This document shows positions 6,622-57,697 of a DNA stretch of 64,000 bases, in pieces. The position numbers and the translations under genes are program-made. The stretch is from NCBI RefSeq assembly GCF_050920415.1, contig NZ_CP169309.1. One strand, 5' to 3'. Within the stretch, counting starts at the first letter, position 1; every line of letters begins with the position of its first letter. A model generated the notes under the pieces. It searched no databases and had not been told where the DNA came from. It worked only from the letters and a program-made list of their open reading frames with translations. The DNA comes from Escherichia coli (lineage in GTDB: Bacteria > Pseudomonadota > Gammaproteobacteria > Enterobacterales > Enterobacteriaceae).

Positions 6622-6708
6622 GCCGAGGTGGTGGAATTGGTAGACACGCTACCTTGAGGTGGTAGTGCCCAATAGGGCTTACGGGTTCAAGTCCCGTCCT
6701 CGGTACCA
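6622..6708 (+). tRNA. leuU: tRNA-Leu (anticodon GAG)
   Basis: GCCGAGGTGGTGGAATTGGTAGACACGCTACCTTGAGGTGGTAG...GGTTCAAGTCCCGTCCTCGGTACCA, 87 nt with long variable arm and encoded CCA. Confidence 0.95.
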
Positions 6709-12616: not shown

Positions 12617-12693
<77 letters not shown>

Positions 12694-12815
12694 CTTTCCC
12701 TTAGAGTCCTTTTTCAAATATACTGTGAAGACTTCGGCCTTCGTAGTGGGATTTGAAAAAATCCTTCTGGAAAGTGCTCCAGACCGCAGTTGCGGTTATA
12801 GGGTTCAGTTATATA

Positions 12816-12885
12816 AAGCCCCGATTTATCGGGGTTTTTTGTTATCTGACTACAGAATAACTGGGCTTTAGGCCCTTTTTTTATG
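12816..12885 (+). terminator. two tandem hairpin-U tract terminators/attenuators between metY and rimP
   Basis: aaagccccgatttatcggggttttttg and gggctttaggcccttttttt. Confidence 0.65.
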
Positions 12886-14891: not shown

Positions 14892-17564
14892 ATGACAGAT
14901 GTAACGATTAAAACGCTGGCCGCAGAGCGACAGACCTCCGTGGAACGCCTGGTACAGCAATTTGCTGATGCAGGTATCCGGAAGTCTGCTGACGACTCTG
15001 TGTCCGCACAAGAGAAACAGACTTTAATTGACCACCTGAATCAGAAAAATTCAGGCCCGGACAAATTAACGCTGCAACGTAAAACCCGCAGCACCCTTAA
15101 CATTCCTGGTACCGGTGGAAAAAGCAAATCGGTACAAATCGAAGTCCGCAAGAAACGCACCTTTGTGAAACGCGATCCGCAAGAGGCTGAACGCCTTGCT
15201 GCGGAAGAGCAGGCGCAGCGTGAAGCGGAAGAGCAAGCCCGTCGTGAGGCAGAAGAATCGGCCAAACGCGAGGCGCAACAAAAAGCTGAACGTGAGGCCG
15301 CAGAACAAGCTAAGCGTGAAGCCGCTGAACAAGCGAAACGTGAAGCTGCGGAAAAAGACAAAGTGAGCAATCAACAAGACGATATGACTAAAAACGCCCA
15401 GGCTGAAAAAGCCCGCCGTGAGCAGGAAGCTGCAGAGCTCAAGCGTAAAGCTGAAGAAGAAGCGCGTCGTAAACTCGAAGAAGAAGCACGTCGCGTTGCT
15501 GAAGAAGCACGTCGTATGGCGGAAGAAAACAAATGGACTGATAACGCGGAACCGACTGAAGATTCCAGCGATTATCACGTTACTACTTCTCAACATGCTC
15601 GCCAGGCAGAAGACGAAAGCGATCGTGAAGTCGAAGGCGGCCGTGGCCGTGGTCGTAACGCGAAAGCAGCGCGTCCGAAGAAAGGCAACAAACACTCTGA
15701 ATCAAAAGCTGATCGTGAAGAAGCACGCGCAGCAGTACGTGGCGGTAAAGGCGGAAAACGTAAAGGTTCTTCGCTGCAGCAAGGCTTCCAGAAGCCAGCT
15801 CAGGCCGTTAACCGTGACGTTGTGATTGGCGAAACCATCACCGTTGGTGAACTGGCGAACAAGATGGCGGTTAAAGGTTCTCAGGTCATCAAAGCGATGA
15901 TGAAACTGGGCGCAATGGCAACCATCAACCAGGTTATCGATCAGGAAACCGCACAGCTGGTTGCTGAAGAGATGGGCCACAAGGTTATCCTGCGTCGTGA
16001 AAACGAGCTGGAAGAAGCGGTAATGAGCGACCGTGACACAGGTGCTGCGGCTGAACCGCGCGCGCCGGTTGTGACCATCATGGGTCACGTTGACCACGGT
16101 AAAACCTCTTTGCTGGACTACATTCGTTCAACGAAAGTGGCCTCTGGCGAAGCGGGCGGCATTACCCAGCACATTGGTGCATACCACGTTGAAACTGAAA
16201 ACGGCATGATCACCTTCCTGGACACCCCGGGGCACGCCGCGTTTACTTCAATGCGTGCACGTGGTGCGCAGGCAACGGACATCGTAGTCCTGGTTGTTGC
16301 TGCCGACGACGGCGTAATGCCGCAGACCATCGAAGCAATTCAGCACGCGAAAGCGGCAGGCGTGCCGGTTGTGGTTGCAGTGAACAAGATCGACAAACCA
16401 GAAGCCGATCCAGATCGCGTTAAGAACGAACTCTCCCAGTACGGCATCCTGCCGGAAGAGTGGGGCGGTGAAAGCCAGTTCGTACACGTGTCTGCGAAAG
16501 CAGGTACCGGTATCGATGAACTGCTGGACGCTATCCTGTTGCAGGCAGAAGTTCTGGAACTGAAAGCGGTACGTAAAGGTATGGCGAGCGGTGCGGTTAT
16601 CGAATCCTTCCTCGATAAAGGTCGTGGTCCGGTTGCTACCGTTCTGGTACGTGAAGGTACTCTGCACAAGGGCGACATCGTTCTGTGTGGTTTCGAATAC
16701 GGTCGTGTTCGCGCAATGCGTAACGAAATGGGTCAGGAAGTGCTGGAAGCAGGTCCGTCCATTCCAGTTGAAATCCTTGGCTTGTCCGGTGTTCCGGCAG
16801 CGGGTGACGAAGTTACCGTAGTGCGTGACGAGAAGAAAGCACGTGAAGTTGCACTGTATCGTCAGGGCAAATTCCGTGAAGTTAAACTGGCACGTCAGCA
16901 GAAATCGAAACTCGAGAACATGTTCGCTAACATGACCGAAGGCGAAGTTCACGAAGTGAACATCGTTCTGAAGGCAGACGTTCAGGGTTCCGTGGAAGCG
17001 ATCTCCGACTCCTTGCTGAAACTGTCTACTGACGAAGTTAAAGTGAAGATCATCGGTTCTGGCGTAGGTGGTATCACCGAAACCGACGCTACCCTGGCTG
17101 CGGCGTCCAACGCCATCCTGGTTGGTTTCAACGTACGTGCTGATGCCTCTGCACGTAAAGTGATTGAAGCGGAAAGCCTGGATCTGCGTTACTACTCCGT
17201 CATCTATAACCTGATCGACGAAGTGAAAGCGGCGATGAGCGGTATGCTGTCTCCGGAACTGAAACAGCAGATTATCGGTCTGGCGGAAGTTCGTGATGTG
17301 TTCAAATCACCGAAATTTGGTGCCATCGCAGGTTGTATGGTTACTGAAGGTGTGGTTAAACGTCACAATCCGATCCGCGTTCTGCGCGACAACGTGGTTA
17401 TCTACGAAGGCGAGCTGGAGTCCCTGCGCCGCTTCAAAGATGACGTTAACGAAGTCCGTAACGGTATGGAATGTGGTATCGGCGTTAAGAACTACAACGA
17501 CGTCCGCACTGGCGATGTGATCGAAGTATTCGAAATCATCGAGATCCAACGTACCATCGCTTAA
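14892..17564 (+). CDS. infB: translation initiation factor IF-2
   Basis: 890-aa ORF with charged repeat-rich N-terminal region and GTPase domain ([21 protein letters not shown]). Confidence 0.95.
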
Positions 17565-17581
17565 GGTTTTTAGGGTTCTAT

Positions 17582-17650
17582 GCGGGATAAGGCGTTTACG
17601 CCGCATCCGGCATGGATTGCCTGATGCGACGCTGGCGCGTCTTATCAGGC
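17582..17650. repeat. REP (repetitive extragenic palindromic) elements
   Basis: gcgggataaggcgtttacgccgcatccggca and gcctgatgcgacgctggcgcgtcttatcaggc. Confidence 0.8.
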
Positions 17651-17685
17651 TACGTGAACAGCCCTTCTAACTGAAATTAATTTTA

Positions 17686-19124: not shown

Positions 19125-19490
<366 letters not shown>

Positions 19491-19506
19491 TTCTTGCGAG
19501 TTTCAG

Positions 19507-19534
19507 AAAAGGGGCCTGAGTGGCCCCTTTTTTC
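19507..19534 (+). terminator. rpsO rho-independent terminator
   Basis: aaaaggggcctgagtggccccttttttc. Confidence 0.8.
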
Positions 19535-19735
19535 AAACTGACGGCAGCAATTCACTGGAAACTAATGTATTGTTGCTATGAATGATCTTCCGTTGCAGAG
19601 GTTCGCGCGGCTAATGAGAGGCTTTACCCACATTGGGCTGGGTTAGGGTTGTCATTAGTCGCGAGGATGCGCAGAAGATCGGGTATTAACACCAGTGCCG
19701 TAAGGTGCTGTCTAAGAAAGAGAAAGGATATTACA

Positions 19736-21871
19736 TTGCTTAATCCGATCGTTCGTAAATTCCAGTACGGCCAACACACCGTGACTCTGGAAACCGGCAT
19801 GATGGCTCGTCAGGCTACTGCCGCTGTTATGGTTAGCATGGATGACACCGCGGTATTCGTTACCGTTGTTGGTCAGAAAAAAGCCAAACCAGGTCAGGAC
19901 TTCTTCCCGCTGACCGTTAACTATCAGGAGCGTACCTACGCTGCTGGTCGTATCCCGGGTAGCTTCTTCCGTCGTGAAGGCCGCCCAAGCGAAGGTGAAA
20001 CGCTGATCGCGCGTCTGATTGACCGCCCTATTCGCCCGCTGTTCCCGGAAGGCTTCGTCAACGAAGTTCAGGTTATCGCCACCGTGGTTTCTGTTAACCC
20101 GCAGGTTAACCCGGATATCGTTGCGATGATTGGTGCTTCCGCAGCACTTTCTCTGTCTGGTATTCCGTTCAATGGTCCGATTGGTGCTGCCCGCGTAGGT
20201 TACATCAATGACCAGTACGTACTGAACCCGACTCAGGACGAGCTGAAAGAGAGCAAACTGGACCTGGTTGTTGCCGGTACAGAAGCTGCCGTGCTGATGG
20301 TTGAATCTGAAGCTGAACTGCTGAGCGAAGACCAGATGCTGGGCGCAGTGGTGTTCGGTCATGAACAACAGCAGGTTGTTATTCAGAACATCAATGAACT
20401 GGTGAAAGAAGCCGGTAAACCGCGTTGGGATTGGCAGCCGGAGCCGGTAAACGAAGCGCTGAACGCGCGCGTTGCTGCGCTGGCTGAAGCTCGTCTGAGC
20501 GATGCTTATCGCATCACCGACAAACAAGAGCGTTATGCGCAGGTTGATGTCATCAAATCTGAAACCATCGCGACGCTGCTTGCTGAAGACGAAACCCTGG
20601 ACGAAAACGAACTGGGTGAAATTCTGCACGCTATCGAGAAAAATGTTGTTCGTAGCCGCGTACTGGCAGGCGAACCGCGTATCGACGGTCGTGAAAAAGA
20701 TATGATCCGTGGTCTGGATGTGCGTACTGGCGTGCTGCCGCGTACTCACGGTTCTGCGTTGTTCACCCGTGGTGAAACGCAGGCACTGGTTACCGCAACG
20801 CTGGGTACTGCACGTGACGCACAGGTTCTTGATGAACTGATGGGCGAACGTACTGACACCTTCCTGTTCCACTACAACTTCCCTCCGTATTCCGTAGGTG
20901 AAACTGGCATGGTCGGTTCTCCGAAGCGTCGTGAAATTGGTCACGGTCGTCTGGCGAAGCGCGGCGTGCTGGCAGTAATGCCGGATATGGACAAATTCCC
21001 GTACACCGTACGTGTAGTGTCTGAAATTACCGAATCCAACGGTTCTTCTTCTATGGCTTCCGTGTGCGGTGCGTCTCTGGCGCTGATGGACGCAGGTGTG
21101 CCAATCAAAGCTGCTGTTGCGGGTATCGCAATGGGTCTGGTGAAAGAAGGCGACAACTACGTTGTACTGTCTGACATTTTGGGCGACGAAGATCACCTGG
21201 GCGATATGGACTTCAAAGTTGCGGGTTCCCGCGACGGTATCTCTGCACTGCAGATGGATATCAAAATTGAAGGTATCACCAAAGAGATCATGCAGGTTGC
21301 GCTGAATCAAGCTAAAGGTGCGCGTCTGCATATCCTGGGCGTCATGGAGCAGGCGATCAACGCGCCGCGTGGTGATATCTCTGAGTTTGCACCGCGTATC
21401 CATACCATCAAGATCAATCCGGACAAGATCAAAGACGTTATCGGTAAAGGCGGTTCTGTTATCCGTGCCCTGACCGAAGAAACTGGCACCACCATCGAAA
21501 TCGAAGATGACGGTACTGTGAAGATCGCAGCGACCGACGGCGAGAAAGCGAAACACGCTATTCGTCGTATCGAAGAAATCACCGCAGAAATCGAAGTGGG
21601 TCGCGTCTACAATGGTAAAGTGACCCGTATCGTTGACTTTGGCGCGTTTGTTGCCATCGGCGGCGGTAAAGAAGGTCTGGTCCACATCTCTCAAATCGCC
21701 GACAAGCGTGTTGAGAAAGTGACCGACTACCTGCAGATGGGTCAGGAAGTACCGGTGAAAGTTCTGGAAGTCGATCGCCAGGGCCGTATCCGTCTGAGCA
21801 TTAAAGAAGCGACTGAGCAGTCTCAACCTGCTGCAGCACCGGAAGCTCCGGCTGCTGAACAGGGCGAGTAA
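19736..21871 (+). CDS. pnp: polynucleotide phosphorylase
   Basis: 711 aa from a TTG start ([26 protein letters not shown]...); RNase PH, KH and S1 domains. Confidence 0.95.
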
Positions 21872-21882
21872 GGTTGCCATTT

Positions 21883-21907
21883 GCCCTCCGCTGCGGCGGG
21901 GGGCTTT
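21883..21907 (+). terminator. terminator after pnp
   Basis: gccctccgctgcggcgggggggctttt. Confidence 0.6.
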
Positions 21908-21979
21908 TAACCGGGCAGGACGCCTTGTTAGCAACCGGGAACAGGACGTTCATTCAACCGTGGTCTTCGGGAGTGGGAA

Positions 21980-33816: not shown

Positions 33817-33998
33817 CATGTCGGATGCGGCGTAAACGCCTTATCCGACCTACGGTTTGCATCGTTGCAGGCCTGATAAGACGCGGCAAGCGTCGCATCA
33901 GGCAACGGCAGTCGGATGCGGCGCAGGCGCCTTATCCGACCTACGGTTTGTGTCGTGTAGGCCTGATAAGACGCGGCAAGCGTCGCATCAGGCATTAC
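33817..33998. repeat. BIME/REP cluster (about 4 REP units)
   Basis: Alternating gtcggatgcggcg...cgccttatccgac and gcctgataagacgcggcaagcgtcgcatcaggc palindromes. Confidence 0.9.

Positions 33999-57320: not shown

Positions 57321-57697
<377 letters not shown>

What the first reader, a model, noticed from the sequence alone, without database searches (positions are those of the whole stretch)
19491..19735. rpsO-pnp intergenic region: terminator, pnp leader and expected antisense sRNA (SraG)
After the rpsO terminator hairpin (19507-19534), a 200-nt leader precedes the TTG start of pnp (19736). In E. coli this leader forms the long RNase III-cleaved stem that autoregulates pnp, and an antisense sRNA (SraG/PsrN) is transcribed from this spacer on the opposite strand. 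I can see the hairpin and the unusual start codon, but not the sRNA boundaries.
Basis: partly seen in the sequence, partly recalled or inferred. Interest (0 to 1): 0.25.

Follow-up and report, generated by a model that had tools for sequence, protein, structure and literature searches.

The report
E. coli rpsO-pnp spacer with SraG
This is the well-studied spacer between the E. coli genes for ribosomal protein S15 and the RNA-degrading enzyme PNPase, holding a two-way terminator, the self-regulating pnp leader hairpin and the known antisense small RNA SraG, so it is correct but ordinary.

Summary
The window is E. coli. Positions 19491-19735 are exactly the rpsO-pnp spacer.

Parts found:
- Hairpin 19505-19533 is the rpsO terminator T1 (-24.6 kcal/mol). 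It also folds on the minus strand, where it ends SraG.
- pnp starts at TTG 19736, a start codon kept in 80/80 Enterobacterales sampled.
- The leader holds a 68-nt hairpin, 19601-19668. This is the RNase III substrate "R" of the literature.
- It is 96% paired across 55 distinct sequences and has compensatory changes in its upper part.

Rfam matches SraG on the minus strand at 19677->19506 (160.8 bits, cut-off 50). Mapping the K-12 annotation (b4449, the 216-nt primary transcript of Fontaine 2016) gives SraG = 19721->19507, 215 nt. Its -10 box, TAATAT, lies at 19733->19728, between the pnp ribosome-binding site and the TTG.

Corrections:
- The alias is PsrO, not PsrN.
- The P2-initiated leader is about 156-158 nt. 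The 201 nt applies only to read-through transcripts.

One modest addition: hairpin R is more stable on the pnp strand in 80/80 species. Selection therefore acts on the leader, and SraG's 5' hairpin is its weaker mirror.

Verdict: already known, low interest.

The parts
19221..19490 (+). rpsO (ribosomal protein S15) coding sequence. Context only; its stop codon defines the left edge of the spacer.
   Evidence: ORF list. 100% identical to E. coli records annotated rpsO. K-12 annotation.
19505..19533 (.). Bidirectional Rho-independent terminator: T1 for rpsO on the + strand and the SraG terminator on the - strand. GC core 19511-19516 / 19522-19527, loop 19517-19521, flanked by an A run and a T run.
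   Evidence: Folds at -24.6 kcal/mol on + (z -5.5) and -23.0 on - (z -4.7). It is the 3' hairpin of the Rfam SraG model. [quoted passage not shown] The window lacks one base of the stem relative to K-12.
19568..19580 (+). Inferred pnp promoter P2 core: candidate -10 TATTGT at 19568-19573 and transcription start at about 19578-19580.
   Evidence: Inference only. The paper places the RNase III cuts 39 and 77 nt downstream of the P2 start. The hairpin geometry (every pair sums to 39269), with a 2-nt 3' overhang and 38-nt spacing, puts the cuts after 19616 and 19654, which places the start at about 19578. My recollection of a 37-nt 5' fragment in Jarrige 2001 (paper not held) would give 19580. The block TGTATTGTTGCT is conserved across many genera. 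The promoter scan did not call it.
19601..19668 (+). Hairpin R of the pnp leader, the RNase III substrate that starts autoregulated decay. Apical loop 19631-19638. Inferred cuts after 19616 and after 19654.
   Evidence: The MFE of 19590-19680 is -39.2 kcal/mol, the same as the K-12 allele. 96.2% of cells are paired over 23 pairs in 55 distinct sequences, against 33-50% in slid controls, and 5 pairs change on both sides. The hairpin is more stable on the + strand than on the - strand in 80/80 species. RNase III cleavage itself comes from the literature and was not tested here.
19665..19667 (+). First of only two GGA motifs downstream of the distal RNase III cut. It is buried in the 3' arm of hairpin R and is a candidate CsrA site, exposed only after processing.
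   Evidence: Read directly from the sequence. The GCGAGGATG block is nearly invariant in 81 sequences. The statement that CsrA binds two sites after RNase III/PNPase processing comes from PMC5029454 citing Park 2015. The exact sites could not be checked because that paper is not held.
19693..19710 (+). Small hairpin in the pnp leader (CAGUGCC-GUAA-GGUGCUG). It contains the 19707 difference from K-12 (G here, A in K-12). That base pairs with U in both alleles on the + strand, but gives a C-A mismatch on the SraG strand.
   Evidence: Fold at -9.9 kcal/mol, not significant on its own (z -1.4). Difference list.
19724..19738 (+). pnp translation-initiation region: Shine-Dalgarno AAGGA at 19724-19728 (which holds the second GGA, the candidate CsrA site overlapping the SD) and the TTG start at 19736-19738.
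   Evidence: K-12 pnp start mapped by alignment. TTG in 80/80 Enterobacterales loci and AAGG nearly invariant. The UUG start and toe-print are in PMC5029454.
19507..19721 (-). sraG primary transcript, 215 nt here against 216 in K-12. +1 is the T complementary to 19721; the 3' end lies in the T run after the terminator, at 19507. Antisense to the P2 pnp leader over about 19579-19721.
   Evidence: K-12 ncRNA sraG b4449, 3311183..3311398, mapped onto the window: 4 substitutions and one 1-nt deletion. The ends were determined by cRT-PCR in PMC5029454. Rfam RF00082 covers 19677->19506 at 160.8 bits.
19506..19679 (-). The shorter SraG form as first annotated (Argaman 2001, 174 nt; 'SraG-S'). It corresponds to the extent of the Rfam model. 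It lacks the 42-nt 5' part needed to repress pnp.
   Evidence: Rfam match 19677->19506. The paper puts the true start 42 nt upstream of the old 5' end and shows that SraG-S does not block the toe-print.
19728..19733 (-). SraG promoter -10 box, TAATAT on the minus strand, 6 nt upstream of +1. It lies between the pnp SD and the TTG. The -35 was not identified.
   Evidence: Sequence identical to K-12 from 19765 down to 19708. Position deduced from +1. The paper reports that a mutation in the -10 abolishes the 216-nt SraG. Its figure with the underlined boxes is not held. The promoter scan did not call it.

Best explanation
The interval is the E. coli rpsO-pnp intergenic control region. It carries overlapping signals on both strands.

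On the + strand:
- Transcripts from the rpsO promoter either stop at hairpin T1 (19505-19533) or read through.
- A second promoter, P2 (start inferred at about 19578-19580), makes pnp-only mRNA.
- Both mRNAs contain hairpin R (19601-19668). RNase III cuts both arms of it.
- PNPase then removes the small 5' arm fragment.
- This exposes the leader to CsrA binding (GGA at 19665 and at the Shine-Dalgarno, 19726) and to RNase E.
- PNPase synthesis from the weak UUG start (19736) is therefore held down in proportion to PNPase activity.

On the - strand:
- SraG starts at 19721, only 3 nt from the pnp Shine-Dalgarno, and ends at the same hairpin T1 used in reverse (19507).
- By pairing with about 143 nt of the pnp leader, it blocks 30S binding and creates new RNase III sites. 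This adds a modest extra layer of repression.

Shown here: the identity of the locus, all coordinates, the folds, the conservation and covariation of R, and the Rfam and K-12 identity of sraG.

Taken from the literature: RNase III cleavage, PNPase autoregulation, CsrA binding, SraG expression and its effect.

Inferred: the exact P2 start, the cut positions and the CsrA motifs.
For: - Identity: 19150-19800 is 100% identical to many E. coli chromosomes and is found in 5425 of 5426 genomes.
- K-12 annotates pnp, sraG, rpsO and truB in this order. The spacer differs from K-12 at 5 positions only.
- Rfam: SraG at 160.8 bits on the minus strand and the S15 leader at 117.6 bits upstream of rpsO.
- Folds: T1 z -5.5 on + and z -4.7 on -; leader z -3.9; SraG z -4.5; R at -39.2 kcal/mol.
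- Comparative: TTG start in 80/80 loci. SraG model hit in 20/20 genera sampled. R is 96.2% paired with 32 doubly changed cells, and 0/500 shuffles reach this.
- Mechanism from PMC5029454: bidirectional terminator, P1 and P2, and RNase III, PNPase, RNase E and CsrA. The 216-nt SraG and its promoter. RNase III sites at +39 and +77 and new cuts in the duplex. Toe-print inhibition by full-length SraG only. A -10 mutation raises pnp mRNA and PNPase.
Against: - Nothing in the sequence contradicts this reading.
- No expression data exist for this particular strain. The window's sraG has 5 differences from K-12. One of them (19707) turns a U-A pair into a C-A mismatch in the 5' part of SraG.
- The two simple scanners found neither P2, PSraG nor T1.
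- According to the authors, SraG is poorly expressed and its overexpression gives no growth phenotype. Its physiological weight is therefore small.
- The primary papers on P2, RNase III mapping and CsrA sites were not available. Those coordinates are therefore inferred.
Confidence: 0.95

Rival explanations
1. In evolutionary terms, the minus-strand 'SraG' signal is only the mirror image of elements selected on the plus strand (rpsO terminator and pnp leader). On this view, antisense transcription is a weak, lineage-restricted by-product of an A/T-rich promoter-like sequence in the pnp initiation region, not a conserved regulator.
For: - Hairpin R is more stable on the + strand in 80/80 species (mean -35.3 against -21.1 kcal/mol). 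It has 4.5 G-U pairs per hairpin on + and 0.19 on -.
- 96.2% of cells are paired on + against 78.9% on -, and G-U cells number 222 against 3.
- The TAATAT -10 at the E. coli position is exact in only 22 of 81 sequences.
- SraG is poorly expressed, shows no phenotype on overexpression, and has no other targets in E. coli.
Against: - In E. coli, mutating the SraG -10 box on the chromosome raises pnp mRNA and PNPase, and full-length SraG blocks the 30S toe-print in vitro. The RNA therefore does act on pnp in this species.
- The window's promoter and +1 region are identical to K-12.
- Strand asymmetry shows which strand's hairpin is selected. It does not show that the antisense RNA is useless, because a perfect-complement antisense needs no structure of its own.
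- The species are related, so counts such as 80/80 are not independent events.
Confidence: 0.3
2. SraG's main role is in trans on unrelated mRNAs, and its overlap with pnp is incidental.
For: [quoted passage not shown]
Against: The E. coli study looked for other targets by computation and by transcriptomics and found none. The Yersinia target genes have no homologues outside that genus. No trans target was searched for here.
Confidence: 0.08
3. The long minus-strand ORF that ends inside the interval (19712..21934, 740 codons) is a real antisense gene, and the 'SraG' region is its 3' end.
For: The ORF list shows a stop-free minus-strand frame exactly as long as pnp, ending at 19712, 9 nt inside SraG. 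The paper mentions a predicted longer antisense transcript starting 339 nt upstream of PSraG.
Against: The frame is in the same codon register as pnp, so its openness simply means that pnp uses no TTA, CTA or TCA codons (0 of 712). In the first ~520 codons (fewer in some loci) of pnp in 80 other species, the frame is open in only 12, all close relatives or GC-richer genomes. This is a codon-bias shadow ORF.
Confidence: 0.01

Closest known systems
SraG (alias PsrO; Rfam RF00082; E. coli K-12 b4449)
   Same: - Same place and strand: between rpsO and pnp, antisense to the pnp leader.
- Full-length model match at 160.8 bits.
- Promoter and +1 region identical to K-12, and the same shared terminator.
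- 211 of the 216 K-12 positions are unchanged in the window.
   Different: Four substitutions (19707, 19636, 19634, 19537) and one 1-nt deletion in the terminator stem, so 215 nt rather than 216. Two of the substitutions lie in the apical loop of the R mirror hairpin. None changes the predicted energy of R.
pnp leader RNase III hairpin and PNPase autoregulation (Portier, Regnier, Robert-Le Meur, Jarrige, Carzaniga; summarised in PMC5029454)
   Same: A long imperfect hairpin about 70-135 nt upstream of a UUG start. Its lower stem is nearly invariant across Enterobacterales. A GGA motif lies in the 3' arm and another in the SD.
   Different: No difference in kind. This is the E. coli element itself, as a common non-K-12 allele.
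Bidirectional intrinsic terminators shared by convergent transcripts
   Same: A GC-rich stem flanked by an A run on one side and a T run on the other, so either strand reads as a hairpin followed by a U tract. The paper states this explicitly for T1/T.
   Different: Here the second user is a 215-nt antisense sRNA rather than a convergent protein-coding gene.
RliD (Listeria) and ref41 (Enterococcus), antisense RNAs at pnpA
   Same: sRNAs located at or opposite the pnp locus in Firmicutes (mentioned).
   Different: No sequence similarity to SraG according to the authors. Not examined here.

Membership tests
SraG sRNA (RF00082) | Scores above the curated Rfam gathering threshold over the full model | tested here: met
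   160.8 bits against a gathering score of 50, model positions 1-177 of 177, minus strand 19677->19506.
SraG sRNA (RF00082) | Lies in the rpsO-pnp spacer, transcribed opposite to both genes | tested here: met
   rpsO at 19221-19490 (+), pnp from 19736 (+), match on the - strand. The same arrangement holds in 20/20 other genera sampled.
SraG sRNA (RF00082) | Primary transcript boundaries and promoter as mapped in K-12 (216 nt, +1 15 nt from the pnp TTG, -10 box) | tested here: met
   K-12 b4449 mapped to 19721->19507. The sequence from 19765 down to 19708, which includes the -10 and +1, is identical to K-12. The ends come from cRT-PCR in PMC5029454.
SraG sRNA (RF00082) | Rho-independent terminator at the 3' end | tested here: met
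   The minus-strand fold of 19496-19545 is -23.0 kcal/mol, z -4.7, and is followed by UUUUC.
SraG sRNA (RF00082) | The RNA is actually made in this strain | not testable with these tools
   No expression data. Inferred from the promoter being identical to K-12.
pnp autoregulatory leader (RNase III hairpin R) | Long stable hairpin in the 5' leader upstream of pnp | tested here: met
   Hairpin 19601-19668. The segment 19590-19680 folds at -39.2 kcal/mol. The whole leader has z -3.9.
pnp autoregulatory leader (RNase III hairpin R) | Structure conserved in evolution on the mRNA strand | tested here: met
   96.2% of cells paired, against 33-50% in slid controls. 5 pairs change on both sides, and 0/500 shuffles reach the covariation score. 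The + strand is favoured in 80/80 species. Caveats: the structure was derived from the window sequence, and the species are related.
pnp autoregulatory leader (RNase III hairpin R) | Cleaved by RNase III at two staggered sites, with PNPase-dependent decay afterwards | not testable with these tools
   From the literature only. The cut positions after 19616 and 19654 are inferred from geometry.
pnp autoregulatory leader (RNase III hairpin R) | Non-canonical UUG start codon of pnp | tested here: met
   TTG at 19736 corresponds to the K-12 start. TTG in 80/80 loci.
Intrinsic (Rho-independent) terminator, rpsO T1 | GC-rich hairpin immediately followed by a U tract, just downstream of the stop codon | tested here: met
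   GGGGCC-TGAGT-GGCCCC followed by TTTTTT, 17 nt after the rpsO stop. -24.6 kcal/mol, z -5.5. It was missed by the simple scan.
CsrA-regulated leader | Two GGA motifs, one overlapping the Shine-Dalgarno | tested here: inconclusive
   Exactly two GGA motifs lie between the distal cut and the TTG, at 19665-67 and 19726-28, and both are conserved. Whether these are the mapped binding sites could not be checked, because Park 2015 is not held.

The most novel reading that the evidence does not exclude
The antisense layer is an evolutionary add-on. Selection in Enterobacterales acts on the pnp-leader strand, where G-U pairs are tolerated only on that strand and the lower stem is nearly invariant. 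The SraG promoter is present only in some lineages. If so, SraG-mediated control of PNPase would be a lineage-specific exploitation of a pre-existing leader, and the broad Rfam 'SraG' family would largely be annotating the mirror image of the pnp leader and the rpsO terminator.
Probability: 0.35. Interest if true: 0.3.

Novelty: already known. Interest (0 to 1): 0.08.

Why it matters
This changes little. The region is one of the classic examples of post-transcriptional autoregulation in E. coli, and SraG has been annotated since 2001 and given a function in 2016.

Practical value here:
- A reminder that automatic (PGAP) annotation of E. coli genomes usually lists only rpsO and pnp here, although the sRNA is present.
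- A small comparative point: the conserved hairpin is selected on the mRNA strand. This cautions against reading Rfam antisense-sRNA hits in other genera as evidence of a functional sRNA.

Tried and rejected
- The consensus promoter and terminator scan found none of the three known signals (P2, PSraG, T1). I did not take this as evidence against them, because folding, the Rfam model and the literature support them.
- I tried to read the primary papers for exact positions of P2, the RNase III sites and the CsrA sites: Park 2015 (PMC4652041), Jarrige 2001 (PMC125756), Carzaniga 2009 (PMC2648360) and Portier 1984 (PMC320059). None is held. The supplement of Fontaine 2016 is not held either. Those coordinates therefore remain inferred.
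- Alternative P2 -10 candidates (ACTAAT at 19561-66, TAATGT at 19563-68) were considered and rejected. They would put the published +39/+77 cuts 6-10 nt out of register with a 2-nt-overhang cut across the stem.
- The 740-codon minus-strand ORF over pnp was considered as a possible antisense gene and rejected as a codon-usage shadow.
- A first regular expression for the end of S15 failed and was corrected.
- The general MAFFT alignment of the leader was too gappy in the apical part of R for pair counting. I replaced it with an alignment anchored on the two invariant arms. This excludes 4 species with large insertions and one (L077) in which the arm anchors were not matched.

Full report
**What is at the coordinates**

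The window is Escherichia coli. The stretch 19150-19800 is 100% identical to many E. coli chromosomes and occurs in 5425 of 5426 complete genomes, under features annotated rpsO and pnp.

- The rpsO ORF is 19221-19490.
- The pnp ORF taken from TTG 19736 to 21871 is 711 codons.
- Aligned with K-12 MG1655, TTG 19736 is the annotated pnp start, 3311168.
- The reported interval 19491-19735 is therefore exactly the 245-nt rpsO-pnp spacer.

**The observation**

The hairpin AAAAGGGGCC-TGAGT-GGCCCCTTTTTT lies at 19507-19533, with one or two more pairs possible from 19505.

- On the + strand it folds at -24.6 kcal/mol (z = -5.5; 0 of 200 shuffles as stable).
- On the - strand it folds at -23.0 kcal/mol (z = -4.7), because an A run precedes it and a T run follows it.
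- The simple terminator scan did not list it. The likely reason is that the stem extension uses up the T run its rule requires. I did not check this and treat it as a limit of the scan.

The 201 nt between the hairpin and the TTG fold better than shuffles (-76.7 kcal/mol, z = -3.9). One long imperfect hairpin, 19601-19668, dominates the fold. The segment 19590-19680 has an MFE of -39.2 kcal/mol, identical to the K-12 allele.

**The antisense sRNA and its boundaries**

A scan of the whole window against Rfam gives a full-length match to SraG (RF00082) on the minus strand, 19677->19506. It scores 160.8 bits against a gathering score of 50.

K-12 annotates ncRNA sraG (b4449) at 3311183..3311398, 216 nt. 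This is the primary transcript determined by circular RT-PCR in Fontaine et al. 2016 (PMC5029454). That study moved the start 42 nt upstream of the 174-nt form first described, and confirmed the promoter by a -10 mutation.

Mapped onto the window, SraG runs from 19721 (+1, a T on the minus strand) to 19507.

- It is 215 nt long. It differs from K-12 by four substitutions (19707, 19636, 19634, 19537) and a one-base deletion in the terminator stem.
- The old 5' end corresponds to 19679.
- The -10 box TAATAT lies at 19733->19728, between the pnp Shine-Dalgarno (AAGGA, 19724-19728) and the TTG.
- The sequence from 19765 down to 19708 is identical to K-12, so the promoter is intact.
- I could not identify a convincing -35.

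**How it works**

The following steps come from the literature; none was tested here. According to PMC5029454 and the work it reviews:

1. Transcription from P1 upstream of rpsO ends at T1 or reads through. A second promoter, P2, downstream of T1 makes monocistronic pnp mRNA.
2. RNase III cleaves stem-loop R at two sites, 39 and 77 nt from the P2 start.
3. PNPase then degrades the processed 5' end, RNase E attacks, and CsrA binds two sites, one of which overlaps the Shine-Dalgarno. Together these lower PNPase synthesis.
4. SraG pairs with the leader, induces new RNase III cuts in the duplex and prevents 30S binding.
5. Only the full-length form does this. The form lacking the first 42 nt does not.
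6. A chromosomal -10 mutation raises pnp mRNA and PNPase.
7. T1 and the SraG terminator are the same bidirectional element.

**Inferred coordinates**

- In hairpin R every predicted pair (i, j) has i + j = 39269.
- Two cuts 38 nt apart that leave 2-nt 3' overhangs must then fall after 19616 and after 19654.
- This puts the P2 start at about 19578.
- My recollection that Jarrige 2001 describes a 37-nt 5' fragment would give 19580. In that case TATTGT (19568-19573) sits at the canonical -10 distance. That paper was not available, so this is marked as recollection.
- The P2 leader is therefore about 156-158 nt, not 200.
- SraG overlaps the P2 leader over about 143 nt. The last ~72 nt of SraG are complementary only to read-through transcripts. 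This fits the paper's remark that the terminator cut lies outside the duplex.
- Exactly two GGA motifs lie between the distal cut and the TTG. One is at 19665-19667 in the 3' arm of R, the other at 19726-19728 in the Shine-Dalgarno. They are the obvious candidates for the two CsrA sites, but I could not check this.

**Related sequences**

A search with the first 120 residues of PNPase fetched 80 loci from different Enterobacterales species.

- All 80 start pnp with TTG.
- The spacers range from 201 to 353 nt.
- Rfam finds SraG on the minus strand of the spacer in all 20 genera sampled, from Escherichia albertii to Budvicia and Arsenophonus, at 83-191 bits.
- In an alignment of the leaders, the two lower arms of R (TTCGCGCGGCTAATGAGAG and TTGTCATTAGTCGCGAGGATG) are nearly invariant, while the upper part varies.
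- On an alignment anchored on the two arms (76 sequences, 55 distinct, 23 pairs), 96.2% of cells form a standard pair, against 33-50% when the partner is slid.
- In the same alignment, five pairs show changes on both sides (32 cells), and no shuffle of 500 reaches the observed covariation score.

**Which strand is selected**

A Rfam hit on the minus strand cannot by itself separate an sRNA from the mirror image of a conserved leader, so I compared the two strands.

| Measure | + strand (pnp mRNA) | - strand (SraG) |
|---|---|---|
| Mean MFE of R, 80 species | -35.3 kcal/mol | -21.1 kcal/mol |
| Species in which this strand is more stable | 80 of 80 | 0 of 80 |
| G-U pairs per hairpin | 4.5 | 0.19 |
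| Cells paired in the fixed structure | 96.2% | 78.9% |
| G-U cells in the fixed structure | 222 | 3 |

- Most of the variation in the lower stem is G-U to A-U or G-C to G-U. Such changes keep the pair on the mRNA strand only.
- The window's own difference at 19707 behaves the same way: U-G here, U-A in K-12, but C-A on the SraG strand.
- The hairpin is therefore maintained as part of the pnp leader. SraG's 5' hairpin, which RNase III also cuts in vitro at mirror sites, is its weaker reflection.
- The TAATAT -10 at the E. coli position is exact in only 22 of 81 sequences. Other lineages have other A/T-rich hexamers whose activity is unknown.
- The species are related, so these counts are not independent events. 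The asymmetry does not argue against SraG acting on pnp in E. coli, where the genetics are direct.

- The alias given, PsrN, is not supported. An open paper writes 'SraG (PsrO)' and lists PsrN as a different sRNA.
- The '200-nt leader' applies to read-through transcripts only.

**Verdict**

This is an already known, well-characterised locus, correctly recognised. Its parts are now placed to the base, with P2, the RNase III cuts and the CsrA motifs inferred rather than shown. Interest is low.

The only reading with some novelty is that the antisense layer is a lineage-specific add-on to a leader selected on the mRNA strand. I consider this possible but unproven.

Noticed in passing
window 19712-21934 (-): A 740-codon stop-free ORF on the strand opposite to pnp, as long as pnp itself and ending 9 nt inside SraG. 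It is in the same codon register as pnp, and pnp has no TTA, CTA or TCA codons (0 of 712). In the first ~520 codons (fewer in some loci) of pnp in 80 other species, the frame is open in only 12. This is a codon-bias shadow ORF, not a gene.
   Followed up: yes
window 19163-19277 (+): Rfam S15 leader (RF00114, 117.6 bits). This is the pseudoknot/hairpin through which S15 represses its own translation, just upstream of and into rpsO. It is found in all 20 other genera sampled.
   Followed up: partly
window 17581-17651 (+) and 33870-33941 (-): Two matches to Rfam naRNA4 (RF02564, 75.6 and 70.7 bits; gathering score 59.5), the REP-derived 'nucleoid-associated' RNA family. The first lies just after the 890-codon ORF that ends at 17564.
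   Followed up: no
window 12617-12690 (+), 12782-12882 (+), 6622-6705 (+), 57321-57697 (+): Other Rfam hits in the window: a tRNA directly upstream of a rimP leader (RF01770, 102 bits), a second tRNA at 6622-6705, and RNase P RNA class A (319 bits).
   Followed up: no
E. coli genome collection: Of 5426 complete E. coli genomes, one has no match to the rpsO-pnp spacer query, one has two copies, and one copy lies on a plasmid record. PGAP-annotated records list only rpsO and pnp under the match, so sraG is not annotated there although it is in K-12.
   Followed up: no
L035 (Enterobacter sp. BIGb0383), L052 (Dickeya oryzae), L048, L078, L080: Some species have enlarged spacers (up to 353 nt in L035) or large insertions in the apical part of hairpin R (R segment of 91-117 nt in L052, L048, L078 and L080, against 59-77 nt elsewhere). 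The paper mentions an insertion element in this spacer in Yersinia pestis.
   Followed up: no
window 19544-19576 (+): The leader fold predicts a further hairpin (GCAGCAAUUCACUGGAAACUAAUGUAUUGUUGC) between T1 and R. It overlaps the inferred P2 promoter, so it would exist only in read-through rpsO-pnp transcripts and, mirrored, in the 3' half of SraG. Its significance was not tested.
   Followed up: no
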